From the IMG/VR virus record IMGVR_UViG_3300034378_000186, positions 16,793-80,792 of that record: 64,000 nucleotides of DNA; one strand, 5' to 3'. Source of the DNA: a virus. The position numbers and the translations under genes were made by a program. Under the pieces are notes generated by a model that saw only the letters and a program-made list of their open reading frames with translations, did not search any database and had not been told where the DNA came from. Shown here in pieces: positions 8,487 through 56,487 of this stretch (positions are counted from its first letter, which is position 1; every line of letters starts with the position of its first letter).

Positions 8487-9281
8487 ATGCCTTCGTTAAC
8501 TCTGACAGCAGTATATGAGAAAAATAAGGGACTTATTTTCTCTCCTGAAGAATTGTTTAATATCTATTTTTATGGTATAAACATTCAAAGTAAAGATTGT
8601 ACTGAATTGTCAGATGAAACGATTAAGTTTTACTTAAGGACTGCTCAAGGGGAAATTGAAAAATCTCTTGGAATAAGGCTGTTTACAGAACTGATTTCAG
8701 AAAATTATGATTATTTTCGTGATGATTACGAAAACAATTTCCCTTTTATAAGAACCTCCCTTCCTGTTAGAGATACAAAAACTCTAATAGGAAGGTTAAA
8801 TGGGGTTGAACAGATCAGGTACCCAGAACAATGGTTAGCTGAGAAATTTTATAGATCAGGATTACCCTATAGACAATTTGGGGTAGTTCCAAATGGATCT
8901 GTTATTAATGCAGATGCAGATGTTATTTTAACAGGAGTCAGTAGTTATTATGGATTAAGATCTTATCCTCAGATACCTAATTATTGGTTTGTTCAGTTTA
9001 TTACTGGATTTGAACCAGGAAAAGTACCTGAGGAGTTAATGAATATTATAGGAATGTGGGCAGCAATACCAATACTTGCAATTGCAGGTGATTTAATATT
9101 AGGAGCTGGTATTGCAAGTCAAAGTTTAAGTATAGATGGGTTGAGTCAATCAATTAGTTCAACTTCATCTGCTACTAATGCTGGATATGGGGCAAGAATA
9201 GTGGAATATAGGAAAACCGTAAAAGAATCCCTTTCCAGATGGAAAAGGGCCTACTCAGGAGTTAGATTTGCGTCACTTTAA
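8487..9281 (+). CDS. Head completion / neck (adaptor) protein
   Basis: GAGIASQSLSIDGLSQSISSTSSATNAGYGARI motif typical of SPO1/Twort-like neck proteins; synteny. Confidence 0.75.
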   Translation: MPSLTLTAVYEKNKGLIFSPEELFNIYFYGINIQSKDCTELSDETIKFYLRTAQGEIEKSLGIRLFTELISENYDYFRDDYENNFPFIRTSLPVRDTKTLIGRLNGVEQIRYPEQWLAEKFYRSGLPYRQFGVVPNGSVINADADVILTGVSSYYGLRSYPQIPNYWFVQFITGFEPGKVPEELMNIIGMWAAIPILAIAGDLILGAGIASQSLSIDGLSQSISSTSSATNAGYGARIVEYRKTVKESLSRWKRAYSGVRFASL

Positions 9282-9292
9282 AATTATATATT

Positions 9293-9739
9293 ATGAAAAC
9301 TTTAGAAATTTTTTTATTTAGTATCTTACAGGTAGATACTACAACTGCTTTGAAAGATATGTCTTTCAAAGAATTGTTTTTTGGAGATCAATTAAGTGGA
9401 ACACTTATTCTTTTTTCATATTTCTTGTTTTTCCTTGGGATTGTGTTAACAATGTTTTTGGATGTTAGATTGGCAGCAATCAATACTAAAAGGAAAAAGG
9501 GGGTTTGGAAATTTACCTGGAAATATTGGTGGAAGGATAATAGCACCCGGTTTATTTTTAATATATTGGTAGGGGTGATTGGTTTATATGTTCTTCTTAG
9601 ATTTCCAAATCAGTTTATGGAAAAGAGTTTTGAAATTTGGATGCCTTTAGTAGCAGGAGCAGGTTTAGATCTATTTATTATAGTTCTAAGAAGGTTCACC
9701 AATATAAATATTTTCAATAATAAGCAAGTTTCAAAATAA
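9293..9739 (+). CDS. Membrane protein with about 3 TM helices (holin-like candidate)
   Basis: Three hydrophobic stretches with basic loops. Confidence 0.5.
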   Translation: MKTLEIFLFSILQVDTTTALKDMSFKELFFGDQLSGTLILFSYFLFFLGIVLTMFLDVRLAAINTKRKKGVWKFTWKYWWKDNSTRFIFNILVGVIGLYVLLRFPNQFMEKSFEIWMPLVAGAGLDLFIIVLRRFTNINIFNNKQVSK

Positions 9740-10583: not shown

Positions 10584-13500
10584 ATGAAAAGAATATTATT
10601 TGGTATATTGTTGATTCTATTAGGGGTGTTAGTTAATGCCCAAGATCAACCAGTTTTGGCTTTACCAAACAGAGGTGCCCCTTCTAATTCTGATGTGTAT
10701 TATTTAAGTAGTGCAGCAGGGACAGATTATAAGATTCAACATTCTGATATCTGGAATGATATTTATCAAAATTATGTTTTGAGATTAACAGATACAGGGG
10801 TAATTGATACTTCCTATTATATAATGATAAACAACGGAACTAAAACTTATAAGGTGAAATATAAGGTATTGGTTTCAGATCTTGATACAGTATTGTATGC
10901 TTATTTTGCTGGATATGCTTATTTTGCTGGATATGCTTATAATGTAGATACTGCTCAGGATAATATGTTTGTAAAAGATACAATGTTTATAAATTATGGT
11001 AGGTTACTTGATATTAAAGATTCAATAGATGTTGGATATTATATTGAAAGTGATTTTGTATTAAGTGATAACTTTTTCACAAATGGGGATTTTAAATTTA
11101 ATGATTCTTCTTGGTGGAATGGAACAGGGAATCAGGTGTTTAAGATATATGATGAAAGGGCAAATTATTTTCAGGATGGTTCTCAAGGTTTTCAAACAAA
11201 TCAATTTTCATTAGTAGATATTGATATAACAAAAGAACATTATTTTAGTTTTGAAATGGGTGGGGTTTCAAATGATCCTTTGACTTTACAATTTTTGGAT
11301 AAAGATAACAATGTTTTATTTACTAAAGTTATTCCTACTGCTTATACAGGGATTTTTGATACAATTTTGACTGTGACTGCAGATATTGAAGTAATGAATA
11401 TTCAAGGGTTTTCAAGTCCTGGAGCAAGTTTTTGGTTTGATAATTTTTATTTAAGTGAAAGAAGTTATAAACCAATTCTGAAATATGATACAACGGTAGT
11501 TTTTGAAAATATTCAATTTCAAAATTTACGATTGGATGAATTATTATCAAGTAGGGTTGGATATTTAGGTGATGCAATAGTAAGGGATACGATATTTTCA
11601 AAATTAGATATTGGAGGATTTAAACCTATTATTCCTTTAAATGAATCAAATTTTGATTCAGTGGGATTGTGGGATGTGGCAGGAGGTATTATAAGTGGGG
11701 GTAAATTTCAGAATGTTGCAAATCCTCTTACTATTTATGCAAATTATCCTGTTGATTTACAAGCAGGAGATTCAGTATATGTTGAAATTTATTTTGATGT
11801 AAAAGATGGATTTGGAGGGGGAAGTATACAAGTAAGTTTTAATACAGATTCTTTAGATACTATTTTTATTCCAGATAATTGGCATACAAATTATAAATGG
11901 GTTACAAGATTTCATACTTTAAATTCTCCTTCTACTCAATTTTCTTTTTCAGGAGTAAGGGAAGAATCATCTATTATGAATTTAGGTATTGATAGAATTA
12001 TAGTTGGTAAATATGAACAGGGTGCTGTTAGAGATTTGGCTTTTGATAAACCAATTGGATTAAAAAATGTTATTGTTCATAGTGATCAAATTTCAAGTAT
12101 TGAGGCGGAAAAGGTTGATGGTAAAGTAGATAGTTCTTATTATTCAGATATTGCAGGAGAATTATTAAATGGCCTTAAAGATGATACAGTTTTTACAAAT
12201 TATATTTTCCCTTATCAATCTGGAACTTCTTTAGAAATTGGTCATGATACTACTGAAACTGAAGTTTTATTTTCTGATAAATTATTGTTAAAAGGAGATA
12301 GAACTTTAGGAGATACAACAATTCAATTTAAAGTTACTGAAATTGAAACTGATTATACTGGACTAGAGATGTATGGTTGGATCTATGAGAATTGGTCAGG
12401 GAATGATGATCTTCATAAGTTTTTTGAGTGGGATGGTTATTATCATACTCTGATGATTGGTCACGAGGGGAATGATAGACAGTACTTAGATGTATCGGAG
12501 TTTGACTTATTGATGGGTGGACAAGATAACTCAATAGATCTTGGTGGATATAGTATGAGCTTAGGTGGTAAATCTAATAATATAACTACTGGATATTATA
12601 GAATCTCTATAGGTGGTAATAGTAATTCACTTTCAGGATCAACTACTTTTGATGCAGGGGCGATTATAATCGGAGGTTATGATAATGACTTGAATGGGAA
12701 TTCTGAATCTCCAATAATCATAGGTGGTAATACCAATACTTTAGGGAATGGTAATGATTACTCCATGATTTTGAATGGAAAAGATAATACAATCTCTGGA
12801 GATTTTAATACTTATAATACTATCATATCAGGAGAAGGTAATATACTTAGTGGAACTTATAACATAGTAGGAGGTTATTATAATTCAATATCTGGTAATT
12901 ATAATATTTCTACGGGTGGTGGTAATTCACTTGGTAGTAATTGCGACAATTCAATAGCAGTAGGGGAATATGTCAATATTGATAATTCGTATATTGGTAG
13001 TGCAGGATTTGGAGAAGAGATATTTATAGACGGAGAAGGTAACCTTGTTTCAGGTTACTATAATAGTATTACCGCTGATTATTCAGCCATAGCAGGTGGT
13101 AGTGAATCGAGTATTAGTAGTTTTGGGTCTAATTGTTTTATTGGTGGAGGTTATGATGCCAGTATTCAAGGAGGGTCTAATTGTTTTATTGGTGGAGGTT
13201 ATGATGCCAGTATTCAAGGAGGTTCTGGTAATTTTATAATAGGAGGAGAGGAGTTGCAAGTTCAAAATTCTAATAGTAACTATTCAGGAGTGATAGGAGG
13301 TTATCAAAATGTTTTGGATGATTGTGAGAATTCAATAATACTTGGAGGACAGGGGAATAATATAGGTAATGGTACTTATGAAGCTTTTTTGGGAGGTGGT
13401 TATAATAATGATATTGGGGGTAGTTCAGGATCTAATAGATCTGTAATACTTGGGGGAGATGAAAATCAATTAAATGGCGGGGGAAAATCTGCTATGATTG

Positions 13501-14378
13501 CTACCGAATCAAGTATTTTCTCTAAAGGTAATTATTCTTTAATGGGGGCTACTTCTAATTCTGAAATGAGTTTTAATAATGGCGGCGGCGGTTGTATTAT
13601 ATTAGGAGGAGATTATAATTATATGGGGGCGTCAGGAACTTATGATATTTCAGGAGGGGTAATGTTAGGAGGAGATTCTAATTATTATGAGAACGGAAAT
13701 TATGGGGCAATAATTGGAGGATTAAATCATGTTATTGATTCAGGGCAAAGTATAATTTTATTAGGGGGTACAGATTTAATAGGTCATTCTAATAATACAA
13801 CAATTACTGGAAAATATAATAATCAAGGCCAATATTTAAGTGATAGTGTTTTGTTTGTGGTTGGTAATGGAACAGCTTTTGATATGAGATCAGATGTTTT
13901 TTGGGTAAATGAAAATGGTCATGGTTATATTAATGGTAAATTGAATTTTGGAGCTAAAGATTCTGCTAATATATATTTTCGTGAGGTGGGAGATGGAACA
14001 GATACTTTATATGTAAATTGTTATTCAGGGGTTGTAAAAATTGGGAATAATTCTTTGATTGTTGATCAATCAGGGAATGTTAATATATCTGGTAATTTAA
14101 CTGTAAATGGTACTACAATAGGTGTTGATACAAGTTCTTTTTCAGAAACGTTACCACAAATTAACGGATTAAGGTATAAACAGAAATCTTCAGGTATTAC
14201 TACAACTTTATGGGCAAGTCCTCTTGAGGGTGATTTGATAGTAATTTTTAACAGGGGTGGAGGAAGTAATACTATTAACGGTAATGGAAATAATATAGAA
14301 GGCAGTGCTACTACCTCTTTAAATAATGGGGAAACTCTTCATTTAAGATTTATTGATGGTGAATGGTTAATCGAATAA
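10584..14378 (+). CDS. Large fibre/adhesin-like protein with N-terminal signal peptide and Gly-Asn-rich beta-roll repeats
   Basis: MKRILFGILLILLGVLVNA-Q signal; many IGGxxN repeats; LFVVGNGT...RSD motif; C-terminal 83-aa domain shared with 15208-16674. Confidence 0.65.
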   Translation: MKRILFGILLILLGVLVNAQDQPVLALPNRGAPSNSDVYYLSSAAGTDYKIQHSDIWNDIYQNYVLRLTDTGVIDTSYYIMINNGTKTYKVKYKVLVSDLDTVLYAYFAGYAYFAGYAYNVDTAQDNMFVKDTMFINYGRLLDIKDSIDVGYYIESDFVLSDNFFTNGDFKFNDSSWWNGTGNQVFKIYDERANYFQDGSQGFQTNQFSLVDIDITKEHYFSFEMGGVSNDPLTLQFLDKDNNVLFTKVIPTAYTGIFDTILTVTADIEVMNIQGFSSPGASFWFDNFYLSERSYKPILKYDTTVVFENIQFQNLRLDELLSSRVGYLGDAIVRDTIFSKLDIGGFKPIIPLNESNFDSVGLWDVAGGIISGGKFQNVANPLTIYANYPVDLQAGDSVYVEIYFDVKDGFGGGSIQVSFNTDSLDTIFIPDNWHTNYKWVTRFHTLNSPSTQFSFSGVREESSIMNLGIDRIIVGKYEQGAVRDLAFDKPIGLKNVIVHSDQISSIEAEKVDGKVDSSYYSDIAGELLNGLKDDTVFTNYIFPYQSGTSLEIGHDTTETEVLFSDKLLLKGDRTLGDTTIQFKVTEIETDYTGLEMYGWIYENWSGNDDLHKFFEWDGYYHTLMIGHEGNDRQYLDVSEFDLLMGGQDNSIDLGGYSMSLGGKSNNITTGYYRISIGGNSNSLSGSTTFDAGAIIIGGYDNDLNGNSESPIIIGGNTNTLGNGNDYSMILNGKDNTISGDFNTYNTIISGEGNILSGTYNIVGGYYNSISGNYNISTGGGNSLGSNCDNSIAVGEYVNIDNSYIGSAGFGEEIFIDGEGNLVSGYYNSITADYSAIAGGSESSISSFGSNCFIGGGYDASIQGGSNCFIGGGYDASIQGGSGNFIIGGEELQVQNSNSNYSGVIGGYQNVLDDCENSIILGGQGNNIGNGTYEAFLGGGYNNDIGGSSGSNRSVILGGDENQLNGGGKSAMIATESSIFSKGNYSLMGATSNSEMSFNNGGGGCIILGGDYNYMGASGTYDISGGVMLGGDSNYYENGNYGAIIGGLNHVIDSGQSIILLGGTDLIGHSNNTTITGKYNNQGQYLSDSVLFVVGNGTAFDMRSDVFWVNENGHGYINGKLNFGAKDSANIYFREVGDGTDTLYVNCYSGVVKIGNNSLIVDQSGNVNISGNLTVNGTTIGVDTSSFSETLPQINGLRYKQKSSGITTTLWASPLEGDLIVIFNRGGGSNTINGNGNNIEGSATTSLNNGETLHLRFIDGEWLIE
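10896..10940 (+). repeat. 18-bp perfect tandem repeat x2.5 (YAYFAG YAYFAG YAY)
   Basis: TATGCTTATTTTGCTGGA repeated in frame. Confidence 0.9.
13125..13222 (+). repeat. 48-bp perfect tandem duplication (SNCFIGGGYDASIQGG x2)
   Basis: Identical 48-nt units at 13125-13172 and 13173-13220. Confidence 0.92.
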
Positions 14379-15207: not shown

Positions 15208-16674
15208 ATGAAAAGAATATTGTTTTTGTTGATATTATATCTACCATTATTTTTATATGGTCAAGATTATAGCGATAATAAGGTTATTGATATTAATCCT
15301 GGAGGTGGAGGAGGTCCTGACAGCACGTGGGTAACCATAACTACTGACACATTAAAAGTTAATGAACACCTGGAAGTCAGTGGAACTGCCACAATAGCAG
15401 AAATGGAAGTGACCGGCGCATCGTCGGTCGACGCCAACTTCTCGATTACCGGGGAGAACTATATGAGCCTCGACTATTGGTTAGAGAGCGCATTGCCGAG
15501 TTCCTCCAGTGGACCGAAATCCTTTATCGCGTCCAAGACAGACGGGGGTGGCAACCCTTATCTGTGGCACGTACAAGACCTTGGCACGTATAAGATACTG
15601 GACGAGTACTACTTAGAGGTGGAAGGTGCCGGTCTGGTGAAGTACTTCACACCAACAGGCACGAACGACCTGGCGGAGTTCGAGCTGTACTGCACGTACC
15701 AGATGGCCAAGGGACAGCCTGCGTACATATACGACCCTAGCGACAACGGACTGGACATACAGTACCCGTCGGCGACTGGCAAAAGTTACAACAGACTGCC
15801 GTGGATCGGCGTGTCAACGGACGGGGACGACGCTCCACGAATTAGGATAGATAGCGGAACGCTGTTCAGCCAGATGGGAATAAAGAACTTCAGCATAGAC
15901 GTGTTCGGTGACATAACGATACACTCGTACGGCGCGGAGATGGACTTCGCCAACGTCTACATCAAGAAGAACGCCAAGATAACGATAAGTGGCTCGGGCA
16001 AGTTCAAGTTCTACCGGCTCAAGACCTATTCCTCGACCGGGATAAGCAGGATGAACATAAAAAACATGGCTAACATGTACATAACTTACTTCTTGACCGT
16101 CGGCCCCAGCGGCATAGACTTGCAGATAGAGGACGGCGGGGTGCTCGACATAGGCAAGGGCGACGACAAAGTGGAGATTCACGTGGGATACAACTTAGGA
16201 ACGCCACAGAACGACGCGAGGCTCAGCGTCGCGGATTACAACAACATAGACTCGGTGGTCGTCCACGGGGACAGGTGCATAGTGGAATTAACGAACTGCG
16301 ACGCACTGGACATCAGACCCACAGCGGACGCAACGACTGTGATAGGAAACGGCAACGTCGTGAACGACGGAGGAACTAACAGCGTAATCCTGGAGGACAT
16401 CGCTGATGGCAAGATGCCGGCCGACACGTCTTCGCTGGGCGAGACCATACCCCGCATGAACGAGCTGGTGTACAAGCAGAAGGGCAACGGTATAACCACC
16501 ACGCTCTGGGCGAGTCCCGAGGAGGGTGACAACCTTGTGATAATAAACAGGGGCGGTGGCAGCAACACGATTTCGGGAAACGGGAACAACATCGAGGGGT
16601 CGGCGACCACGACGATTAACGACGACGAGAGCTTCAGCCTCGTGTACATTAACGGCGAGTGGCTGATATATTAA
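15208..16674 (+). CDS. Signal-peptide fibre-like protein with foreign high-GC body
   Basis: MKRILFLLILYLPLFLYG-Q; GC jumps after the GGGGG linker; C-terminal domain 58/83 identical to the 10584 protein. Confidence 0.65.
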   Translation: MKRILFLLILYLPLFLYGQDYSDNKVIDINPGGGGGPDSTWVTITTDTLKVNEHLEVSGTATIAEMEVTGASSVDANFSITGENYMSLDYWLESALPSSSSGPKSFIASKTDGGGNPYLWHVQDLGTYKILDEYYLEVEGAGLVKYFTPTGTNDLAEFELYCTYQMAKGQPAYIYDPSDNGLDIQYPSATGKSYNRLPWIGVSTDGDDAPRIRIDSGTLFSQMGIKNFSIDVFGDITIHSYGAEMDFANVYIKKNAKITISGSGKFKFYRLKTYSSTGISRMNIKNMANMYITYFLTVGPSGIDLQIEDGGVLDIGKGDDKVEIHVGYNLGTPQNDARLSVADYNNIDSVVVHGDRCIVELTNCDALDIRPTADATTVIGNGNVVNDGGTNSVILEDIADGKMPADTSSLGETIPRMNELVYKQKGNGITTTLWASPEEGDNLVIINRGGGSNTISGNGNNIEGSATTTINDDESFSLVYINGEWLIY

Positions 16675-16722
16675 AAAACTTTATTAAAAATTAAATAATT
16701 ACTAATTTAAACATAACAGAAA

Positions 16723-17289
16723 ATGAAATCAATTAAATTATTTATTATCGCATTAATTAGTTTGGTAACTTTTACAGTCGAAGCCCAAATGAGCGATAGT
16801 GCAATGGCTGTTTATGATTCTGCAGTTTGTCAGGATGCAATTAGTGATATTGGTAATCCTACATGTGCTAAATATGTAGATTATTTATATTATAATTGGA
16901 AAGGAGATGTAAATGATTTTGATTCTCTTGAACAAATTAATTTTTGTACAGTAACAGGTACTTTAGTAACTGTTTATGGTGCTGATACTGTTGCATTAAT
17001 TATTACATGTCAAATAACTCAGGGTACTCCTGCAAGATTATTTAATATGAGTTTTAGTAAAAATAAAAGGAATGTTATGAATTTTGCAGAATTATTTACT
17101 TATTTTATTGATTATTCACAAACAGGTTTAGATAAGGATTCTTTAATAGGAGAAAATGTTTATGGGTATGAGGTAGAGAATGGTAGAAAAAGAACAGGTA
17201 CATTAGTATATATAAATACTGAGGAAAAATATGGAGTAATTGAAAGAGGGAATAGAACCTACAAATGCAATTTATTTACTATCCACTAA
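16723..17289 (+). CDS. Hypothetical protein with signal peptide
   Basis: MKSIKLFIIALISLVTFTVEA-Q. Confidence 0.6.
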   Translation: MKSIKLFIIALISLVTFTVEAQMSDSAMAVYDSAVCQDAISDIGNPTCAKYVDYLYYNWKGDVNDFDSLEQINFCTVTGTLVTVYGADTVALIITCQITQGTPARLFNMSFSKNKRNVMNFAELFTYFIDYSQTGLDKDSLIGENVYGYEVENGRKRTGTLVYINTEEKYGVIERGNRTYKCNLFTIH

Positions 17290-17495: not shown

Positions 17496-17590
17496 AACCT
17501 CCTAAAAAAGGAAAAATAGTAACAGGGGTAACGTTATTTAATATTTTACTTATTGCTGCTGTAACGGTGATAGGAGGTTTATTTATATGA
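17492..17590 (+). CDS. Small single-TM protein whose last 8 codons (19609-19636) were displaced by TnpB element 1
   Basis: ATGA-coupled start; joining 17586 to 19609 gives MKPPKKGK...GGLFIERRVSDAV-stop (40 aa). Confidence 0.6.
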   Translation: MKPPKKGKIVTGVTLFNILLIAAVTVIGGLFI

Positions 17591-17695
17591 CGGAGCGTAA
17601 AACCAATTCATCGCTTTAGCGTGGATTGGATGTAAGCGACTTACTCTTCACTTACATTTTGTAATTTTGTAAAAGTTTAGACTATTTAATAATAT

Positions 17696-19603
17696 ATGCT
17701 TAAAGGATTAAAATATCGCATTTACCCAACCAACTCACAAAAAGAGTTAATAGCCAAACATATTGGTAGTAGTCGTTTTGTGTATAACCTTGCATTAGAA
17801 ACAAAAAATACAGCATATTTAGGTTCTAAACATAACTTTTCTCCTTTTGATTTAATTAAGCAACTATCTGAACTTAAAAAAGAATATCCTTGGCTTAAAG
17901 AGGTTAATAGCCAATCTTTACAGCAAGCTATCCAAAATATGGATATTGCTTTTAAGAAATTCTTTAAAGGGGCTGGTTTTCCTAAATTCAAGTCAAAGCA
18001 TAGAGGAAAACAATCTTTTTCTATTCCACAAAATGTAATAGTAGAAAATGAAAAGTTAATTATTCCTAAATTCAAGGAAGGAATCGAAATTGTTTTGCAC
18101 AGACCTATTGAAGGAACAATCAAAAGTGCAACTATTAGTATTACTTCAACAGGGAAATACTTTGTTTCAATATTAGTTGAAACCAGTAAAGAGAAACCAA
18201 GTAAAGCACCTATTAAAGAAAAAACAACTATTGGTATTAAGTTAGGCGTATTCCCAAATATGTTTTCTACAAATAATTTTTCCGTTAGCCCATTGGCTAA
18301 TAGACGATGCGGAACTTCCAGTTCCTCTACTGGCAGCAGTGCAACTCTCCCAAACAGCAATGATTTCTCCTGTTTCCTTGCTTCTTTGAATGACTTTCTT
18401 CTTGGAAGCCGCCCAAGCAGCTTGATGCAGTTTGGATATATGCTCGGCACTACGTTTTGCCCCCTTATTGGCTTTAGATATTTTTCTTCTTGTTTCAGCA
18501 GAGTGCGTTTTTCCAAAAAAGCCATTAAATTCTCCAACTCTGGTTTTAGCGCGGTTAGAAATAGCAGCACATTCGGATTGAGTTCTTTTTCTCCCCAAAG
18601 TGCTTCTATGGGGTACGGTGCAAATATTATAGCCGAATTTCTTTTCGTTACTCCTAAAGAAGGAAATCCAAAAGCATTCTCTATCTTGAAGGCTTGCGTA
18701 ATCCTCGACAACTTCGATGATTTGGAAATCAAAAGCATCCCATCCGTACTTAGCAATAGCCTTGTAAAATGGAAAGTTGCTTTGCAAGTTCCTTTTTCTT
18801 CTGTGTTCAGCAAATCTAAGTTTGATATTGACGGATTGCCCAATGTAGCATTTACCGTTGATTGTGTTTCTGAAGATGTAAACTCCAGATACAGATGGGA
18901 TGTCTTTGAACCTTGTTTGCATATTGCAAAGATACAAAAAGAAAACGATTTAAAACCTAATTGTTCAAAAAAAGACTTAGGAATAAAATCGTTTTTAGTT
19001 ACTTCTGATGGAGAAGAAATTGATAATCCCAAATACTTACGAAAAGCACAGAGTAGATTAAAATATGTACAACGTAAATATTCAAATAACAAAGGCAAGC
19101 GCACTAAGAAAAAACTTGCTAAGCTACACGAAAAAGTAGCTAACCAAAGAAAAGATTTTCTACATAAAACCTCAACTAAACTGATTCGTGAGAACCAAAC
19201 GATAGCCATTGAGGATTTAGCGGTTGCTAACATGGTCAAGAACCATAATCTTGCACAGGCAATTAGTGATGTTAGTTGGTCAACCTTTGTTTCAATGTTG
19301 GAATACAAAGCTGATTGGTATGGTAAAAATATCTTACAAATAGGACGTTTTGCACCATCATCAAAGACTTGTTCTTGCTGTGGGTATATCAATAAAGAAC
19401 TAACACTAAAAGACCGTGAATGGACTTGTCCTAAGTGTAATTCTGTACTTGACCGTGATGTGAATGCTGCTGTTAACATTAAATCATTTGCATTAAAAAA
19501 TATCTTATCTGGAACGGATAGGAAAACTCGGAACGAACTGCCTCGGTTACGAGGAGTGTTGACTTCCGAAGCCCAACCCATCGGCTCTGCCGTGGGTGGG
19601 TAG
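17696..19603 (+). CDS. tnpB: TnpB RNA-guided nuclease (390 aa native) with a 245-codon in-frame insertion splitting RuvC-I
   Basis: N-terminal KYRIYPT...RFVYN; TTIGI / DLGIK split; IAIEDL; CSCCG...CPKC zinc finger; DRDVNAA. Confidence 0.92.
   Translation: MLKGLKYRIYPTNSQKELIAKHIGSSRFVYNLALETKNTAYLGSKHNFSPFDLIKQLSELKKEYPWLKEVNSQSLQQAIQNMDIAFKKFFKGAGFPKFKSKHRGKQSFSIPQNVIVENEKLIIPKFKEGIEIVLHRPIEGTIKSATISITSTGKYFVSILVETSKEKPSKAPIKEKTTIGIKLGVFPNMFSTNNFSVSPLANRRCGTSSSSTGSSATLPNSNDFSCFLASLNDFLLGSRPSSLMQFGYMLGTTFCPLIGFRYFSSCFSRVRFSKKAIKFSNSGFSAVRNSSTFGLSSFSPQSASMGYGANIIAEFLFVTPKEGNPKAFSILKACVILDNFDDLEIKSIPSVLSNSLVKWKVALQVPFSSVFSKSKFDIDGLPNVAFTVDCVSEDVNSRYRWDVFEPCLHIAKIQKENDLKPNCSKKDLGIKSFLVTSDGEEIDNPKYLRKAQSRLKYVQRKYSNNKGKRTKKKLAKLHEKVANQRKDFLHKTSTKLIRENQTIAIEDLAVANMVKNHNLAQAISDVSWSTFVSMLEYKADWYGKNILQIGRFAPSSKTCSCCGYINKELTLKDREWTCPKCNSVLDRDVNAAVNIKSFALKNILSGTDRKTRNELPRLRGVLTSEAQPIGSAVGG
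18242..18922 (-). CDS. GIY-YIG homing endonuclease with NUMOD3-like and C-terminal HTH-like DNA-binding modules (ATG at 18922)
   Basis: GVYIFRNTINGKCYIGQS, LRFAEH, DRECFWI, GYN; FFGKTHSAETRRKIS; C-terminal VIQ...WESCTAAS...WEY. Confidence 0.92.
   Translation of the reverse strand: MQTRFKDIPSVSGVYIFRNTINGKCYIGQSVNIKLRFAEHRRKRNLQSNFPFYKAIAKYGWDAFDFQIIEVVEDYASLQDRECFWISFFRSNEKKFGYNICTVPHRSTLGRKRTQSECAAISNRAKTRVGEFNGFFGKTHSAETRRKISKANKGAKRSAEHISKLHQAAWAASKKKVIQRSKETGEIIAVWESCTAASRGTGSSASSISQWANGKIICRKHIWEYA
18927..18934 (-). promoter_or_regulatory. Bacteroidota -7 promoter element TATCTTTG for the GIY-YIG gene
   Basis: Matches TAnnTTTG, 4 nt upstream of ATG, inside the 735-bp insert. Confidence 0.7.
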
Positions 19604-19628
19604 TTCACTGAACGTAGGGTTTCAGATG
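19490..19628 (+). ncRNA. Predicted omegaRNA of element 1 (5' end approximate); guide TGAACGTAGGGTTTCAGATG (19609-19628)
   Basis: TnpB omegaRNAs overlap the tnpB 3' end and right end and take their guide from the flank; right-end hairpin and TCAC terminus seen. Confidence 0.65.
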
Positions 19629-40033: not shown

Positions 40034-40433
40034 TAAATGTTCTAAATGTGGAAATAAAAGGGTAATTGTTAATAAGAAATATTATTTGTGTGATGAATGT
40101 AATTACTTTAGACTCCATGGGGAAACGAAATATGATTCATTTCGTAGAAAACAGAGGGAACAGAATAAGAAGAGGAAGCATAAGAAAACCGGGGAATGGG
40201 AATTGTTCATGGAAATATGGGCAGAAAGAGAACATAAATGCCATAATTGTGGGATAAGAATTTTTGTACCAAAACCAATAAATTTTATGCATAAGAAAAG
40301 TAAAGGGGCTTCTCCAAGTTTAAGACTGAAAAAAAGTAATATAGAAATTGTTTGTAGGGATTGTCATTATGCGTATGATTTTCAGGGGATGGATAAGTAT
40401 AACGAAAGAAAAGATTTATATGACGGAGCGTAA
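40017..40433 (+). CDS. HNH/zinc-finger endonuclease-like protein
   Basis: CSKCG, CDEC, CHNCG...NFMHKKSKG...NIEIVCRDCHYAYD. Confidence 0.7.
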   Translation: MEKVIDKCSKCGNKRVIVNKKYYLCDECNYFRLHGETKYDSFRRKQREQNKKRKHKKTGEWELFMEIWAEREHKCHNCGIRIFVPKPINFMHKKSKGASPSLRLKKSNIEIVCRDCHYAYDFQGMDKYNERKDLYDGA

Positions 40434-40470
40434 AACCAATTCATCGCTTTAGCGTGGGTGGGTAATTCAC
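40420..40470 (+). mobile_element. 51-bp minimal IS200/IS605 derivative of family 1 (left end fused to right end)
   Basis: 40414-40457 identical to 17581-17624 (44 bp, including TTTAT); ends GGGTGGGTAATTCAC; removal restores DLYR-stop with TAATG coupling. Confidence 0.9.
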
Positions 40471-41040: not shown

Positions 41041-41259
41041 ATGGGAAATATTATAAAAGAAAATTTGAATCTAACAGGGATGGTAAAATTTCTGAATGAA
41101 AAATTTGGGAATAAAAAAACAGGAAAGAAATTTACTACTCAGGATGTTCAGCAATATATTGAATTAGGATCTCTTCCTAAATATCTTGGATTGTATGATA
41201 TTGAAAGGGTAAAAGGGATTCATTCAGTAAAATTATATAATATTATTAAAAGAAATTAA
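41041..41259 (+). CDS. Small putative DNA-binding protein
   Basis: 72 aa basic; FTTQDVQQYIELGSLP resembles an HTH/excisionase-like motif. Confidence 0.45.
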   Translation: MGNIIKENLNLTGMVKFLNEKFGNKKTGKKFTTQDVQQYIELGSLPKYLGLYDIERVKGIHSVKLYNIIKRN

Positions 41260-41305
41260 TATAAACTACCCATCGGCTAAAGACCGAATGGGTTTTAGAC
41301 AATAA

Positions 41306-42394
41306 CTAAGAATGCAAAGAGCAATACATAATCTGTCTTTCAGGCGTGTTTATAGCCGCCCCAAGCAAAGAGATAACCTTAGAAGCATTAAAATCTGCAT
41401 CAATGGTATCTACTTCACAATTTGTGTTGGTGCATTTAAACACCTTGTTGGTTCGTTTTCCAATATGTTTACAAGAGCTGCACGTCTGCGAAGTATAGGC
41501 AGGTGGTACAACGATGCATTTCACACCATTAAGCAAAGCTTTGTATTCAATATACTGTCTAAGCATAGAGAAATTCCATTTACCAAGTTTAGTCCGAAAC
41601 TTCTTGTTTCTTTTTTTACTTGTAAATCGGATTCCAGTAAGGTCTTCAATAGCGATTCCCTTGCCTTGCTCCTTAGCAGATTGAACAATAGATTTTGCGA
41701 TAGTGTGATTAACAATTTGGGCGTGCGTTTTCTCCCTTCCCGAAAGCCTTTTCAAAAGTCGTTTAGAACTTCTTGTGCATTTGGACTGGATAGAACTCCG
41801 AACCTTTTGACGTTTTTCCTTATACCTATTAAGGGAGTTGTTGGTGTGTTTCTCACCATCACTTGTTTCAACAATAGATGTGATGCCGAAATCCACTCCC
41901 GTAAATTCGGAAACATCTTTAATATCTACATCTGGAATATCAACACATTGAAACAAGAAAAATTTCCCTTTCCTGTAGATAAGGTCGGCCTCCCCTTTTA
42001 TGTATGGAAGATACTTTTTGTTGAAACATTTAAAAGGTATTTTTTGTCTGCCACCAATACACCATATAGAAACAATGTCTTTTTTGTAGGTAAGAATCCT
42101 ACTGTCATAAGTAATTGCTCCAAAAGGCTTGAAAACACGTTTTTTCTTCCTATCAAGTTTATAAGCATCGTTCACTTTTGCGATGGCACGAACAATTACT
42201 TGTGCAGAAAGATTAGAGTTTTCCTTGATTTGATGGTAAACAAGTTTATGTATTTTGAACTGATTAAAAACTTTGTTTTCCCAAGCTATATTAGAAATAG
42301 CGTTGCAACTTTTATTCACCGATTTAATGGTGTTAAGGAGCATCTGTTTATGTTCTTCCGTGGGTTCAAGTTTTATTTTAAGAGTCAAAACCAT
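41306..42394 (-). CDS. tnpB: TnpB RNA-guided nuclease, catalytic triad intact (ATG at 42394)
   Basis: LTLKIKLEP N-terminus; GVDFG, IAIEDL, AYTSQTCSSC, FKC...C, DADFNAS. Confidence 0.92.
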   Translation of the reverse strand: MVLTLKIKLEPTEEHKQMLLNTIKSVNKSCNAISNIAWENKVFNQFKIHKLVYHQIKENSNLSAQVIVRAIAKVNDAYKLDRKKKRVFKPFGAITYDSRILTYKKDIVSIWCIGGRQKIPFKCFNKKYLPYIKGEADLIYRKGKFFLFQCVDIPDVDIKDVSEFTGVDFGITSIVETSDGEKHTNNSLNRYKEKRQKVRSSIQSKCTRSSKRLLKRLSGREKTHAQIVNHTIAKSIVQSAKEQGKGIAIEDLTGIRFTSKKRNKKFRTKLGKWNFSMLRQYIEYKALLNGVKCIVVPPAYTSQTCSSCKHIGKRTNKVFKCTNTNCEVDTIDADFNASKVISLLGAAINTPERQIMYCSLHS

Positions 42395-42398
42395 AAGG

Positions 42399-42406
42399 CA
42401 AATATA
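42399..42406 (-). promoter_or_regulatory. Bacteroidota -7 element TATATTTG for tnpB2
   Basis: Matches TAnnTTTG, 4 nt before ATG. Confidence 0.7.
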
Positions 42407-42504
42407 CAAAATATTTCTATATTTGAAAATTATTATTTAACCAAAGGGAGAGCCACTTTCCTCCCATCGACACTTTGTGACCAATGGGTTTCCGTGGCAG
42501 TTTT

Positions 42505-43122
42505 ATGAAATTTGAGGCTAATTTTTTAACATTTGACCTGGAAACAGGGGGTTTAAAATCTGAAGAAAACCCTGTTTTGGAAGTTGCATTTTTTGCAATG
42601 GATAAAGATCTTAATGAGATCGATAGTTATAATAGTTTGATAAAACCTTATGGTAAACTAAAAATCACAGATGGTGCTTTAAAGGCCAATGGATTAAATT
42701 TAGAAACATTGGAAGAGAAAGGGAAAGAATGTAAAGAAGTAGCAGAAGATTTAGTTCAATTTTTTATAAAACATAAAAAAAGGAAAACATTACCTATTTT
42801 ATGTGGGCATAACATTGAACATTTTGATATTCCTTTTTTGGACCAATTTATGAATTTTTGTGGTAAAGATATTTCAAAGTTGGTTAATAATGATTTTATA
42901 ATTGACACATTATGGTGGAGTAGAATAAGATGGGTTGAATCCATTAATTATAAATTGGTAACCTGTTGTGATAATGCAGGGATAGAATTAATAAATGCTC
43001 ATAGGGCTGTTGCTGATACTAAAGCAAATCAAGAATTAGTTAGGTATTTTCTGAATAGTTTAAGATCTGGTCAATCATCAACAGTAATAGAAAAAAGATT
43101 TAGGGAAGAATTTGAATTTTAA
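42505..43122 (+). CDS. DEDDh 3'-5' exonuclease (DnaQ/epsilon-like)
   Basis: FDLETGG, CGHNIEHFDIPFL, IDTL, AHRAVADT. Confidence 0.9.
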   Translation: MKFEANFLTFDLETGGLKSEENPVLEVAFFAMDKDLNEIDSYNSLIKPYGKLKITDGALKANGLNLETLEEKGKECKEVAEDLVQFFIKHKKRKTLPILCGHNIEHFDIPFLDQFMNFCGKDISKLVNNDFIIDTLWWSRIRWVESINYKLVTCCDNAGIELINAHRAVADTKANQELVRYFLNSLRSGQSSTVIEKRFREEFEF

Positions 43123-43125
43123 TAT

Positions 43126-43176
43126 ATAAACTACCCATCGGCTAAAGACCGAATGGGTTTCCTTGCCGAAAATACT
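43126..43176 (-). mobile_element. 51-bp minimal IS200/IS605 derivative of family 2
   Basis: First 35 bp identical to 41261-41295; abuts ATGAA (TAM TTCAT on minus strand) of the terminase start. Confidence 0.88.
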
Positions 43177-54233: not shown

Positions 54234-55271
54234 ATGAAAAATATTTTGGGATTACTATCAACAGATTGGCACCTTAAGGATGAAAATACAGAACTAATTA
54301 AAGATCTGATTATTCAAAAATGTAAAAAAGCCAAAGAATTAAAAATTAAAAATCTTTTCTGTTTGGGGGATGTTTTAAATAGTAGGATTGCCCAAAGACA
54401 AAAGGTGTTATTGGCTTTTAAAGAAATTTTGGATATAATAAATGATTATGGATTGGAATTATATGTAATCCCAGGTAATCATGATAAAACAAATTATTCA
54501 TCCTATAAATCATTCTTAAATCCTTACGAAGGTCATCCAGCCTTAAAATTAATGAGTGAGGGTGATAAATTGGATATTATAGAAGGGATAAGAATTCATT
54601 TTATGCCATACCTGGAGGAAAATATGTGGCTGGAAGAATTTAAACCTGATCTATTGTCAAATATAAAGAATGTTTTACTGACACACATGGCATTTGAGGG
54701 TAGTGTTAATAATGATGGAAGTCTTGTTAGTACTCCCTTAAAGCCAAAATTATTTAAGAAATTTGATTTGGTGTTATCAGGTCATTATCATGATGAACAA
54801 ACTTTGGCTCCAAATATGTATCATATTCCTTCAATTTGCCAGGGTAATTTTGGAGAAGATGAAGTAAAAGGATTCACAATATTGTATGATGATCTGACTT
54901 TTGAAATTGTAAAATCTGATTTCCCTATTTATAAAAAAATATCTATTGATATTAACAAAATATCATCAAATGAGATTGTAAAAATGGCTGAAAAAGAAAC
55001 CAAAAATCTAAAAGATAATATTAGGTTTGAGTTTTCAGGGGATGAGGCAAAATTGAAGAATATAGATAAAAATTTCCTGAATATGATGGGGGTGGATGTT
55101 AAGATCAAAATTGCTTCAGTTGAAATAAAGGAATCGATAAAAAAAGTTAATCTGGAAAAAATCAATAAATCCCAATTATTGGATGAATTTAAAGATTTTT
55201 GTGAACAGGAAAAATTGGATTATGAAGAAGGTGTTGAATTGTTAAATGTGAACTACCCACCCACGCCATAG
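54234..55271 (+). CDS. SbcD/Mre11-like nuclease; native last 14 aa replaced by a MITE-derived tail
   Basis: TDWH, LGDVL, GNHD, SGHYH; ATG at 54234. Confidence 0.88.
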   Translation: MKNILGLLSTDWHLKDENTELIKDLIIQKCKKAKELKIKNLFCLGDVLNSRIAQRQKVLLAFKEILDIINDYGLELYVIPGNHDKTNYSSYKSFLNPYEGHPALKLMSEGDKLDIIEGIRIHFMPYLEENMWLEEFKPDLLSNIKNVLLTHMAFEGSVNNDGSLVSTPLKPKLFKKFDLVLSGHYHDEQTLAPNMYHIPSICQGNFGEDEVKGFTILYDDLTFEIVKSDFPIYKKISIDINKISSNEIVKMAEKETKNLKDNIRFEFSGDEAKLKNIDKNFLNMMGVDVKIKIASVEIKESIKKVNLEKINKSQLLDEFKDFCEQEKLDYEEGVELLNVNYPPTP

Positions 55272-55365
55272 GCGATGGGTTGGGCTTCAAGGTTCATAGA
55301 CTTAACCAACGTTAACGCCTCCACTTGTTTTTATTTATACTCCGATTGCGTCCCAAAACCAGAGT
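55228..55365 (-). ncRNA. Predicted stand-alone omegaRNA; guide ATTTAACAATTCAACACCTT
   Basis: TATATTTG -7 element at 55370-55377 (minus) directly upstream of about 115 nt ending in the right-end hairpin. Confidence 0.55.
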
Positions 55366-55461
55366 TATACAAATATACAACAATTATTTCAAAATATCAA
55401 GCGGAAAAAGAGGTCGCTTACATCCAAACCACTAAAGATGGTTTGGTTTTACGCTTCATTT
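55248..55461 (-). mobile_element. 214-bp non-coding family-1 IS200/IS605 MITE: left end + promoter + omegaRNA-like scaffold + right end
   Basis: Minus strand: TTTAT|AAATGAAGCGTAAAACC...TTGGATGTAAGCGAC (like element 1 left end) and GAAGCCCAACCCATCGCCTATGGCGTGGGTGGGTAGTTCAC (like right end); removal restores the sbcD frame to TAG at 55504-55506. Confidence 0.9.
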
Positions 55462-55509
55462 ATAAAAGTAAAGATAAAAAGGATTGGAGATAACTTAAAA
55501 AATTAGATT

Positions 55510-56487
55510 ATGGATGTTAAAAAAACTGTTTCTGAAATTCAAAAAAAATATGGTAAGGGAGCAATAAAACAATTGGGAGTAGAAGAAATTGTAGATGTTC
55601 CTAAATTCTCCTCAGGGAGTAAGAAACTTGATAAGGCTCTTGGTGGAGGTATTCCTTATGGAATGATTGTTGAATTTATGGGTTGGGAATCATCCGGGAA
55701 AAGTAGTATTTCTTTGATTGCAATTAAAGAGGTTCAATATGATGGTAAATTATGTGGGTATATTGATGTTGAACATACTTTTGATCCTGTATATGCAAAA
55801 TCTCTTGGGGTTGATGTTGAATCATTATATTTAAGTCAACCGGATTGTGGTGAGGAAGCTGCAGATATTACAGAGATGTTAATTAAATCTGGAGAATTTG
55901 GATTGATTGTAATTGATTCAGTTGCTGCAATGACTCCAAGGGCAGAAATTGAGGGGGATTTTGGTGATTCTAAAATGGGATTACACGCAAGATTAATGAG
56001 TCAAACTATGAGAAAATTGGTTGCTTCCTGTAAAAGACATGGAACAACAGTTTTATTTATAAATCAATTCAGGGAGAAGATTGGAGTAATGTATGGAGAT
56101 TCAAAAGTAACAACTGGAGGGAATGCTCTGAAATTTTTTGCTGCTCAAAGACTTGAAATTATAAAATCCAAAAATATTAATGAGGGTGATGATATTGTAG
56201 GGTATATTAACAGGATCAAGGTTAAAAAGAATAAAGTGGGAACTCCATTTAAGGAAGCTGAGGTGATATTTATGCTTGGTAAAGGATTTGATGAGGAGTA
56301 TAGTGAAATGAAGGAACTGATAGAAGAATGTATTGAAAATGGAGTTATTGAAAAAGCAGGAGGGGGTTGGATGAGTTTTAATGAATTTAAACTTGGTCAG
56401 GGAGATAAAAATGTCATTAAATTGTTAAATGATAATCCAGAATTAGTAGAAGAATTACAAAATAAATTACAGGAAGTATGTTCGTAA
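55510..56487 (+). CDS. recA: RecA recombinase
   Basis: GWESSGKS, IDSVAAMTPRAEIEG, ARLMSQ, FINQFREKIG, TTGGNALKF, KNKV. Confidence 0.95.
   Translation: MDVKKTVSEIQKKYGKGAIKQLGVEEIVDVPKFSSGSKKLDKALGGGIPYGMIVEFMGWESSGKSSISLIAIKEVQYDGKLCGYIDVEHTFDPVYAKSLGVDVESLYLSQPDCGEEAADITEMLIKSGEFGLIVIDSVAAMTPRAEIEGDFGDSKMGLHARLMSQTMRKLVASCKRHGTTVLFINQFREKIGVMYGDSKVTTGGNALKFFAAQRLEIIKSKNINEGDDIVGYINRIKVKKNKVGTPFKEAEVIFMLGKGFDEEYSEMKELIEECIENGVIEKAGGGWMSFNEFKLGQGDKNVIKLLNDNPELVEELQNKLQEVCS

What the first reader, a model, noticed from the sequence alone, without database searches (positions are those of the whole stretch)
55228..55466. Protein-less guide cassette: promoter fused directly to an omegaRNA scaffold inside a 214-bp MITE in sbcD
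Seen (minus strand): TTTAT TAM, family-1 left end, TATATTTG promoter, about 115 nt with no tnpB, right-end hairpin ending TTCAC, then flank ATTTAACAATTCAACACCTT. The scaffold differs from element 1 upstream of the shared GAAGCCCAACCCATCG stem, so it derives from a relative. Excision restores sbcD ...LLNIKVKIKRIGDNLKN-stop, 3 nt before recA. Inference: retaining just the promoter and RNA suggests a stand-alone guide that borrows TnpB in trans to cut MITE-free sbcD alleles, for example in co-infecting relatives. The only same-family TnpB in the window is the interrupted one.
Basis: partly seen in the sequence, partly recalled or inferred. Interest (0 to 1): 0.75.

Follow-up and report, generated by a model that had tools for sequence, protein, structure and literature searches.

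The report
Gene-less TnpB guide-RNA mini-transposon in phage
A 214-base jumping element in the tail of a phage's sbcD gene has lost its nuclease gene but keeps both transposon ends, a promoter and the complete guide-RNA scaffold of a TnpB nuclease; it is a well-supported new example of a kind of element already described in bacteria.

Summary
Window 55248-55461 (minus strand) is a 214-bp protein-less IS200/IS605 derivative (PATE/MITE). It has a TTTAT 5' flank, a left-end hairpin, a TTG-N20-TATATTTG promoter-like box, a 116-nt tract and a right-end hairpin ending GTTCAC. Removing it restores sbcD in frame, with the stop 3 nt before recA.

The 116-nt tract is colinear with the last 37 codons plus right end of a tnpB subfamily (about 50% identical to the phage's interrupted TnpB). 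A covariance model built only from 16 tnpB 3' ends hits it full length (109 bits, E 3e-22). It keeps 30 of 32 covarying pairs despite 21-26 substitutions. Its length equals the 116-nt functional omegaRNA scaffold of ISDra2.

It belongs to a promoter-bearing, gene-less family found in other phage contigs, including three copies in one complete 93-kb phage that has no tnpB with this scaffold.

Expression, TnpB loading and cleavage could not be tested, and no empty site was found.

The concept is published (Meers 2023; Altae-Tran 2021 as summarised in PMC10691335). This scan has also reported the same kind of element on other DNA (for example e1-5950208, e1-5389476). Verdict: real, a new member of a known kind, of moderate interest.

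The parts
55462..55466 (-). TTTAT transposon-adjacent motif (TAM) immediately 5' of the left end
   Evidence: The same TTTAT flanks element 1 (17582-17586), the mini element at 40415-40419, two elements upstream of the window and six family members in other phage contigs.
55413..55461 (-). Left end (49 nt) with a subterminal hairpin at 55446-55424
   Evidence: 87% identical to the left end of the gene-less element at G000 16547-16611 and 78% to the element-1 left end. The ssDNA fold has a 9-bp stem, z -2.5.
55370..55400 (-). Promoter-like module: TTG (55400-55398), 20-nt spacer, TATATTTG -7 box (55377-55370). The predicted start is A at 55365.
   Evidence: The -7 box TAnnTTTG spans -12 to -5 in flavobacteria (PMC9723704). 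The GTATATTT(G/T)TAT-AAC module is conserved next to the scaffold in 8 other gene-less copies. It is absent 2-12 nt upstream of 59 tnpB-linked scaffolds.
55248..55363 (-). 116-nt omegaRNA-scaffold homologue, including the right-end hairpin (55288-55248) and ending GTTCAC
   Evidence: Colinear with tnpB 3' ends, 72-82% identity. CM R2, built without it, gives 109 bits, E 2.9e-22, model positions 1-116. The consensus has 5 helices and 32 pairs, 12 of them with compensatory changes. 30 of 32 pairs are kept, with at most 9 of 20000 simulations reaching that value. The right-end ssDNA hairpin has z -4.1.
55228..55247 (-). Predicted guide segment: right flank ATTTAACAATTCAACACCTT, antisense to the sbcD 3' end
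   Evidence: Its position directly 3' of the right end is shown. The guide role is inferred from established TnpB biology (PMC10097598, PMC10055086). No second TTTAT plus guide-like site exists in the phage record.
54192..55271 (+). sbcD-like nuclease gene (Metallophos). Its last 14 codons are replaced by 7 element-derived codons.
   Evidence: Homology to distant sbcD relatives ends exactly at ...ELL, which is the insertion point.
55462..55506 (+). Displaced original sbcD tail (IKVKIKRIGDNLKN-stop), 3 nt before the recA start at 55510
   Evidence: In relatives the sbcD tail of 7-10 aa abuts or overlaps recA with no 214-bp insert.
17587..19608 (+). Element 1: a tnpB element of a related subfamily, interrupted at 18241-18967 by a minus-strand GIY-YIG gene. 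Its 3' end has the same RNA architecture.
   Evidence: CM R2 gives 81.7 bits at 19503-19608. Its TnpB is about 50% identical to the subfamily whose scaffold the MITE carries.
40420..40470 (+). 51-nt mini derivative: the start of the left end fused to the right-end hairpin, without a scaffold
   Evidence: CM R2 gives only 23.9 bits.

Best explanation
Window 55248-55461 is a non-autonomous IS200/IS605 element (PATE/MITE type) of a lineage that has lost tnpB. It kept, or gained, a promoter placed so that transcription starts about 2 nt before the 116-nt TnpB guide-RNA (omegaRNA) scaffold.

Shown: both transposon ends, the TTTAT target motif, the promoter motif, and homology and structure conservation of the scaffold. 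Also shown: membership of a dispersed gene-less family, and insertion into the 3' end of sbcD.

Inferred: the RNA is made from this promoter, reads through the right end into about 16-20 nt of flanking DNA, and is loaded by a TnpB supplied in trans. That TnpB most likely comes from the Bacteroidota host or from another element, and its subfamily is only about 50% identical to the phage's own broken TnpB. The complex would cut TTTAT+ATTTAACAATTCAACACC sites, meaning sbcD alleles that lack the element. Such alleles arise after TnpA excision or sit in a co-infecting relative. Recombination would then copy the element back in. A Y1 TnpA supplied in trans would move it.
For: - Boundaries and restored frame.
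- Hairpins at both ends as ssDNA.
- TTTAT at 5 copies in this phage and 6 in other contigs.
- The scaffold is colinear with tnpB 3' ends and carries an in-frame stop.
- The covariation-supported structure has 97.7% of cells paired, against 88% when shuffled and 26-44% when slid. Twelve pairs show compensatory changes.
- A CM built without the MITE hits it full length at 109 bits, the best hit in the phage.
- 30 of 32 pairs are kept despite 21-26 substitutions, reached in at most 9 of 20000 simulations.
- The length equals the 116-nt functional ISDra2 scaffold, and a loop-to-3'-end pseudoknot is pairable at nearly the same place: PMC10097598.
- The promoter geometry matches the flavobacterial sigmaA -7 box.
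- The promoter module sits next to the scaffold in 8 other gene-less copies and never upstream of a tnpB. A Chitinophagaceae copy has a diverged spacer but the same TTTG-N20-TAAGTTTG geometry.
- An autonomous element with the same ends, TnpA and TnpB exists in Algoriphagus.
- Trans use of stand-alone omegaRNAs is published: PMC10691335, PMC10055086.
Against: - There are no expression data.
- No TnpB with this scaffold type is present in the phage record, which is about 73% complete. The two nearest TnpB genes there are interrupted.
- No TnpA is present in the phage.
- No empty-site allele was found.
- The bare -7 motif is common in this AT-rich genome: 44-56 per strand in 64 kb, not enriched outside genes. 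The promoter call therefore rests on position and on recurrence in the family.
- Most family members are close copies, so their shared promoter may reflect common descent rather than selection.
- One helix-2 pair and one stem-1 pair are broken in this copy.
Confidence: 0.7

Rival explanations
1. Inert relic. The element is a recent internal-deletion derivative that hitch-hikes on TnpA. The scaffold and promoter motif are leftovers that are not expressed or have no partner nuclease, and they will decay.
For: No cognate TnpB or TnpA in the phage. Many other deletion derivatives with different junctions exist, including 51-54-nt minis that keep only the terminal hairpin. The bare -7 motif is frequent by chance. 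Two pairs of the scaffold are broken in this copy.
Against: Pairing is preserved through 21-26 substitutions, including compensatory changes specific to this copy and L245 in helix 3. The promoter module is conserved across diverged copies and is absent from tnpB-linked relatives. Copies without a left end still keep promoter plus scaffold.
Confidence: 0.2
2. Element co-opted for phage gene expression. The insertion matters mainly on the plus strand or as an antisense promoter. The antisense RNA over the sbcD 3' end would tune sbcD/recA. Alternatively, the nearly stop-free reverse frame (ORF 55275-55493) would let ribosomes cross from sbcD to recA.
For: The promoter fires antisense into sbcD. 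One reverse frame has a single stop. A 72-codon ORF starts 3 nt after the new sbcD stop and ends 17 nt before the recA ATG. Eight of the nine gene-less copies examined have 0-1 stops in one reverse frame.
Against: For this element alone the stop-poor frame is not unusual: 1040 of 5000 shuffles do as well. This reading does not explain conservation of the RNA structure or the placement of the promoter exactly at the scaffold edge.
Confidence: 0.06
3. Decoy RNA. The scaffold RNA titrates a host TnpB or, through its right-end hairpin, a TnpA, instead of guiding cleavage.
For: Gomes-Filho et al. 2015 (PMC4615843) speculated that PATE-derived RNAs with right-end-like hairpins might compete for TnpA. 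The cassettes are multi-copy in phages that lack a matching TnpB.
Against: There is no evidence that host TnpB or TnpA harms phages. The intact ends and TTTAT flanks fit an ordinary mobile element. The guide-adjacent architecture is fully retained.
Confidence: 0.04

Closest known systems
PATE-like minimal IS200/IS605 elements that encode omegaRNAs (Geobacillus stearothermophilus ISGst families; Meers et al. 2023, PMC10055086)
   Same: Gene-less. Keeps the left and right ends of an IS200/IS605 family and carries the omegaRNA. It is presumed to need TnpA and TnpB from other elements in trans.
   Different: It sits in a phage genome (Bacteroidota-type phage), inside the 3' end of sbcD. It has a Bacteroidota-type promoter module abutting the scaffold that its tnpB-bearing relatives lack. 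No tnpB with this scaffold type is in the same (incomplete) record.
Stand-alone omegaRNAs of OMEGA systems (Altae-Tran et al. 2021, as summarised in PMC10691335)
   Same: Mobilised guide-RNA loci without effector or transposase. They were shown to work in trans with compatible effectors.
   Different: [quoted passage not shown] Here the matching effector is not in the phage record, and function is untested.
ISDra2 TnpB omegaRNA (Nakagawa et al. 2023, PMC10097598)
   Same: Derived from the tnpB 3' end plus the right end. It has a 116-nt functional scaffold with several stems and a pseudoknot between a 5' loop and nucleotides -5 to -3, and the guide is the flanking DNA.
   Different: There is no detectable sequence similarity and the TAM differs (TTTAT versus TTGAT). 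Here the pseudoknot is only pairable, not proven. The RNA would be a primary transcript rather than one processed from tnpB mRNA.
PATE-derived ncRNA VNG_R0052 and sotRNAs of Halobacterium (Gomes-Filho et al. 2015, PMC4615843)
   Same: A fused LE+RE element without a gene is transcribed as a small RNA.
   Different: Those are archaeal, no promoter was identified, and the work predates the guide-RNA interpretation.

Membership tests
IS200/IS605 non-autonomous element (PATE/MITE) | Distinct left and right ends, each with a subterminal hairpin, and no terminal inverted repeats | tested here: met
   ssDNA folds of both ends give z -2.5 and -4.1. The ends are homologous to those of tnpB elements.
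IS200/IS605 non-autonomous element (PATE/MITE) | Insertion directly 3' of a conserved short motif (TAM), without target duplication | tested here: met
   TTTAT precedes all 5 copies with left ends in this phage and 6 family copies elsewhere. The flanks show no duplication.
IS200/IS605 non-autonomous element (PATE/MITE) | Precise excision regenerates the uninterrupted target | tested here: inconclusive
   In-silico excision restores the sbcD frame and the juxtaposition of sbcD stop and recA start. Distant relatives have no insert there. No exact empty site was found.
IS200/IS605 non-autonomous element (PATE/MITE) | No transposase or nuclease gene inside | tested here: met
   There are 4-6 stops in each forward frame, and only the last 37 codons of tnpB are recognisable, with an in-frame stop.
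IS200/IS605 non-autonomous element (PATE/MITE) | Mobilised by a Y1 TnpA in trans | not testable with these tools
   No Y1_Tnp is in the phage record. An Algoriphagus element with the same ends carries TnpA.
TnpB omegaRNA | Sequence derived from the tnpB 3' end plus right end, ending at the transposon boundary | tested here: met
   Colinear with 16 or more tnpB 3' ends. CM R2 gives 109 bits over the full length.
TnpB omegaRNA | Conserved secondary structure supported by covariation | tested here: met
   12 of 32 pairs have compensatory changes and the controls are far lower. This copy keeps 30 of 32 pairs.
TnpB omegaRNA | Pseudoknot between a 5' loop and the last nucleotides of the scaffold | tested here: inconclusive
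   The GGA/GAA loop of stem 1 can pair with UUC at -5 to -3 in all 19 sequences, but without covariation.
TnpB omegaRNA | Transcribed and bound by TnpB, and directs TAM-dependent cleavage | not testable with these tools
   No sequencing run was listed and no biochemical tool is available.
Curated Rfam families (e.g. IS605-orfB motifs, HgcC) | Match at or near the gathering score | tested here: not met
   There were 0 matches at gathering score in the window. At E up to 10 on 55150-55550 only two chance-level hits appeared. The scaffold type is therefore not a member of any curated family.
Bacteroidota sigmaA promoter | -7 box TAnnTTTG with an upstream TTG/TTTG at about 19-21 nt | tested here: met
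   TTG-N20-TATATTTG lies at 55400-55370. The -7 box is documented in PMC9723704; the -33 TTG and its 19-21-nt spacing rest on my own knowledge of Bacteroides promoter work. The transcription start itself is untested.

The most novel reading that the evidence does not exclude
The promoter-bearing, gene-less cassettes may be a specialised 'guide-only' lineage of phage-borne hyperparasites. They would reprogram a host-encoded TnpB during infection. The phage allele carrying the cassette would then be copied into cassette-free co-infecting genomes, or those genomes would be destroyed. Copies that have lost the left end (L220, L245) would be fixed guide genes domesticated by phages.
Probability: 0.12. 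Interest if true: 0.65.

Novelty: new member of a known kind. Interest (0 to 1): 0.35.

Why it matters
It adds a clean, well-delimited phage example to the known class of gene-less omegaRNA elements. The retained piece is exactly the 116-nt minimal scaffold, with a host-type promoter placed at its 5' edge. In the sample of scaffold copies examined, gene-less copies were about as frequent as tnpB-linked ones (52 against 59). If the RNA is active with a host TnpB, phage-borne guide cassettes could bias inheritance of phage alleles in mixed infections. The cassette also gives a compact natural template for promoter-driven omegaRNA expression in Bacteroidota. The principle itself is already published, so the gain is incremental.

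Tried and rejected
- Rfam at gathering score on the whole window and at E up to 10 on the element: no relevant family.
- Public sequencing runs for 54700-56000: none was listed, so expression could not be examined and read laying was not used.
- Empty-site search with the joined flanks in IMG/VR and in metagenome contigs: no exact match.
- A 21-nt sbcD-side flank in metagenome contigs gave six hits, all in unrelated genes.
- Phage GenBank collection with the element: only short chance-level matches.
- A first IMG/VR pattern scan was wasted on a spacer that was one N too long. It was corrected.
- Stop-poor reverse frame as an anti-polarity design: not significant for this element alone, since 1040 of 5000 shuffles do as well.
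- The idea that the promoter is simply the tnpB promoter left over after deletion: the closest full-length relative whose left end could be read (L088) has only about 32 nt without such a box between the left end and the ATG. The module was also never seen upstream of a tnpB. The origin of the module remains open.
- Element 2 (41306-42409, minus strand) as partner: its TnpB is 24% identical and the model built from the tnpB 3' ends (R2) gave no match to its 3' end. It is therefore an unlikely partner.

Full report
**Context**

The window is bases 16793-80792 of an 80.8-kb IMG/VR virus record, estimated about 73% complete. Nearly all genes lie on the plus strand. The RecA gene resembles those of Cellulophaga and Chryseobacterium phages. 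The intergenic repeats end in GTATATTTGTA-type boxes. This is therefore a phage of a Bacteroidota-type host (inference).

**The observation**

Reading the minus strand:
- TTTAT lies at 55466-55462.
- The element runs from 55461 to 55248, exactly 214 bp, ends GTTCAC, and is followed by ATTTAACAATTCAACACCTT.
- With the element in place, sbcD (Metallophos) ends VNYPPTP-stop at 55271.
- Removing 55248-55461 gives ...EEGVELLNIKVKIKRIGDNLKN-stop, with the TAG 3 nt before the recA ATG at 55510.
- All forward frames of the element have 4-6 stops.
- As single-stranded DNA, both ends fold into subterminal hairpins.

**Other copies in the phage**

The record is littered with relatives:
- Element 1 at 17587-19608, whose tnpB is interrupted by a minus-strand GIY-YIG gene.
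- A 51-nt mini element at 40420-40470.
- Upstream of the window, a second gene-less cassette with TATATTTG directly after its left end (G000 about 16558-16775).
- Also upstream, a 54-nt mini element, a tnpB C-terminal fragment with a right end (G000 about 9000-9322), and a tnpB split by a 349-aa ORF and followed by an HNH gene before its right end (G000 about 500-2955).

Every copy that has a left end is preceded by TTTAT. No Y1 transposase is present. The finding's left end is closer to that of the other gene-less cassette (87%) than to element 1 (78%).

**What the interior is**

Element positions 99-214 (window 55363-55248, 116 nt, starting TCTGG) align without gaps to the last 37 codons plus right end of many tnpB genes in IMG/VR. 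Identity is 72-82%, and nearly all alignments start at position 99. Read in the tnpB frame, the MITE gives ...SGFGTQSEYK-stop-KQVEALTLVKSMNLEAQPIAYGVGG-stop. The L036 protein ends ...SGSGIESDIKQKRSKASPLGESMTSEARPIAYGVGE. The interior is therefore a tnpB 3' end that no longer codes.

The tnpB genes with the most similar 3' ends (L092, L088) encode proteins only about 50% identical to the element-1 TnpB and 24% identical to the element-2 TnpB.

**Structure**

An alignment of 19 sequences (A2) gives a consensus of five helices and 32 pairs. Twelve pairs show compensatory double changes; for example, four of the five pairs of helix 37-41/72-76 switch between GC and AU.
- Pairing is 97.7%, against 88.4% for shuffled partners (0 of 500 shuffles reach it) and 26-44% when partners are slid by 1-3 columns.
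- A covariance model built from 16 tnpB 3' ends only, without any gene-less copy (A3, R2), finds the MITE as the best hit in the phage: 109 bits, E 2.9e-22, model positions 1-116.
- The same model scores the element-1 3' end at 81.7 bits, the G000 9-kb fragment at 56.2, the split tnpB at 34.5 and the other gene-less cassette at 24.9.
- The MITE keeps 30 of 32 pairs although it differs from its nearest tnpB-linked relatives at 21-26 positions. Random substitutions in that number reach 30 pairs in at most 9 of 20000 trials.
- No Rfam family matches.

**Comparison with a solved omegaRNA**

In ISDra2 the functional RNA is a 116-nt scaffold plus a 16-nt guide. It has four stems and a pseudoknot between nucleotides -5 to -3 and -105 to -103, and everything 5' of -116 is dispensable (PMC10097598). 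The piece retained here is also 116 nt. The GGA/GAA loop of its first hairpin (columns 11-13) can pair with UUC at -5 to -3 in all 19 sequences. There is no covariation at these positions, so this is compatible with a pseudoknot rather than proof of one. This is a resemblance in how it would work; there is no sequence similarity to ISDra2.

**The promoter**

TATATTTG (55377-55370) matches the sigmaA -7 box TAnnTTTG, which spans -12 to -5 in Flavobacterium (PMC9723704). That places the start at about 55365, 2 nt before the scaffold. A TTG lies 20 nt upstream. The sigma-70 scan reads the same site as TTGATA-17-TATATT.

The bare -7 motif is frequent in this AT-rich genome, at 44-56 per strand. 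The case therefore rests on position and recurrence:
- A pattern scan of IMG/VR and of bacterial genomes gave 118 distinct scaffolds with enough upstream sequence. Of these, 59 follow a tnpB, 52 are gene-less and 7 are partial.
- A TAnnTTT(G/T) box 2-12 nt upstream occurs in none of the 59 tnpB-linked copies and in roughly 10 of the 52 gene-less ones.
- The MITE's closest relatives (82-91% over the scaffold) are all gene-less elements sharing left end, GATTTGAC, 19 nt, GTATATTT(G/T)TATTAAC and then TCTGG. Each has different flanks and each is preceded by TTTAT.
- That module was found only next to scaffolds, never in front of a tnpB. The closest full-length relative whose left end could be read has no such box.
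- A Chitinophagaceae MAG copy has a diverged spacer but the same TTTG-N20-TAAGTTTG-N7-TCTGG layout. Copies binned with Patescibacteria carry a TATAAC-type box instead.
- Two copies (L220, L245) have lost the left end but keep promoter, scaffold and right end.

**Who supplies the proteins**

The phage record has no tnpB with this scaffold type and no tnpA. A complete 93-kb phage (G005) carries three copies of the promoter-bearing cassette at different sites. Its tnpB genes are all about 50% identical to the matching subfamily and have other scaffold types.

Bacteroidota genomes (Algoriphagus, Arachidicoccus, Chitinophagaceae and others) carry tnpB-linked copies of this scaffold. Algoriphagus has an element with the same ends, a TTTAT flank and a Y1 TnpA. 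A host-encoded TnpB and TnpA are therefore the most economical partners (inference). Cross-use of the element-1-type TnpB cannot be excluded or shown.

**Insertion site**

sbcD relatives in IMG/VR are distant (35-39% aa). Their homology nevertheless ends exactly at ...ELL, followed by a 7-10-aa tail that abuts or overlaps recA, with no insert. Exact empty sites were not found.

**What is known, and novelty**

Meers et al. [quoted passage not shown] Altae-Tran et al. report mobilised stand-alone omegaRNAs that work in trans (PMC10691335). A PATE-derived RNA is expressed in Halobacterium (PMC4615843). This scan has reported the same kind of cassette on other DNA, including phage elements with TTTAT, TATATTTG and GTTCAC (e1-5950208, e1-5389476). 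The other cassette of this same phage is noted as e1-6080961.

The finding is therefore real and well delimited, but it is a new member of a known kind. Three points add something:
- the exact match of the retained piece to the minimal scaffold;
- the lineage-appropriate promoter module that tnpB-bearing relatives lack;
- the absence of a matching nuclease gene in the carrier phages.

**Verdict**

- Observation: confirmed.
- Interpretation: partly supported. The anatomy holds, the function is untested, and the proposed partner is doubtful.
- Confidence that this is a trans-dependent guide-RNA cassette that is actually used: about 0.7. The main rival, an inert relic, stands at about 0.2.
- Interest: 0.35.

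Noticed in passing
L002:1512-1729 (G000 about 16558-16775, just upstream of the window): A second gene-less cassette: TTTAT, left-end hairpin, TATATTTG directly after the left end, a scaffold of about 150 nt of a different type, and a right end. The scaffold resembles the one behind the HNH gene at G000 about 2840-2955. CM R2 gives only 24.9 bits.
   Followed up: partly
window 40420-40470; L002:1321-1374 (minus strand): Two mini elements of 51-54 nt. Each consists of the first 20-odd nt of a left end fused to a right-end hairpin, preceded by TTTAT. The second supplies the stop codon of the ORF L002:992-1324.
   Followed up: partly
L068:1-2461 (G000 about 495-2955): A third tnpB is split after the ...IALEE motif by a 349-aa Cys-rich ORF. 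An HNH gene then sits between the tnpB end and its scaffold and right end. Whether either insert is an intron was not tested.
   Followed up: no
L069:1492-1814 (G000 about 9000-9322): A 5'-truncated tnpB (105-aa C-terminal ORF with the TNB domain) that keeps a full scaffold and right end. CM R2 gives 56 bits.
   Followed up: partly
window 41259-41295 and 43124-43160: A perfect 37-nt direct repeat containing a right-end-like hairpin that ends GGGTAGTTTAT on the minus strand. It brackets the minus-strand tnpB (41306-42409) together with the RNase_T-type exonuclease gene (42484-43122).
   Followed up: no
window 55275-55493 (+): A 72-codon ORF on the reverse strand of the MITE starts 3 nt after the new sbcD stop and ends 17 nt before the recA ATG. 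Eight of the nine gene-less copies examined have 0-1 stops in one reverse frame, but for this element alone that is not significant (1040 of 5000 shuffles).
   Followed up: partly
L220:1890-2152 (minus strand); L245:12040-12255: Copies that keep the promoter module, scaffold and right end but have no left end within 700 nt. These may be immobilised guide genes.
   Followed up: partly
L325, L326, L327 (G005, a 93-kb phage record rated 100% complete): Three promoter-bearing cassettes of this family sit at different sites in one complete phage. Its tnpB genes all have other scaffold types.
   Followed up: partly
L279, L280, L291, L292, L301, L302: Gene-less copies in contigs binned as Saccharibacteria, WWE3 or Patescibacteria. 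They carry a different left-end hairpin and a TATAAC-type -10-like box about 7 nt before TCTGG instead of the Bacteroidota box.
   Followed up: no
L311 (2.6-kb contig binned as Nealsonbacteria): A scaffold 97% identical to the one in this finding, sitting at a contig end. It may come from a related phage that was mis-binned.
   Followed up: no
window 13125-13220: A perfect 48-nt tandem duplication inside the 1264-aa ORF at 10584-14378.
   Followed up: no
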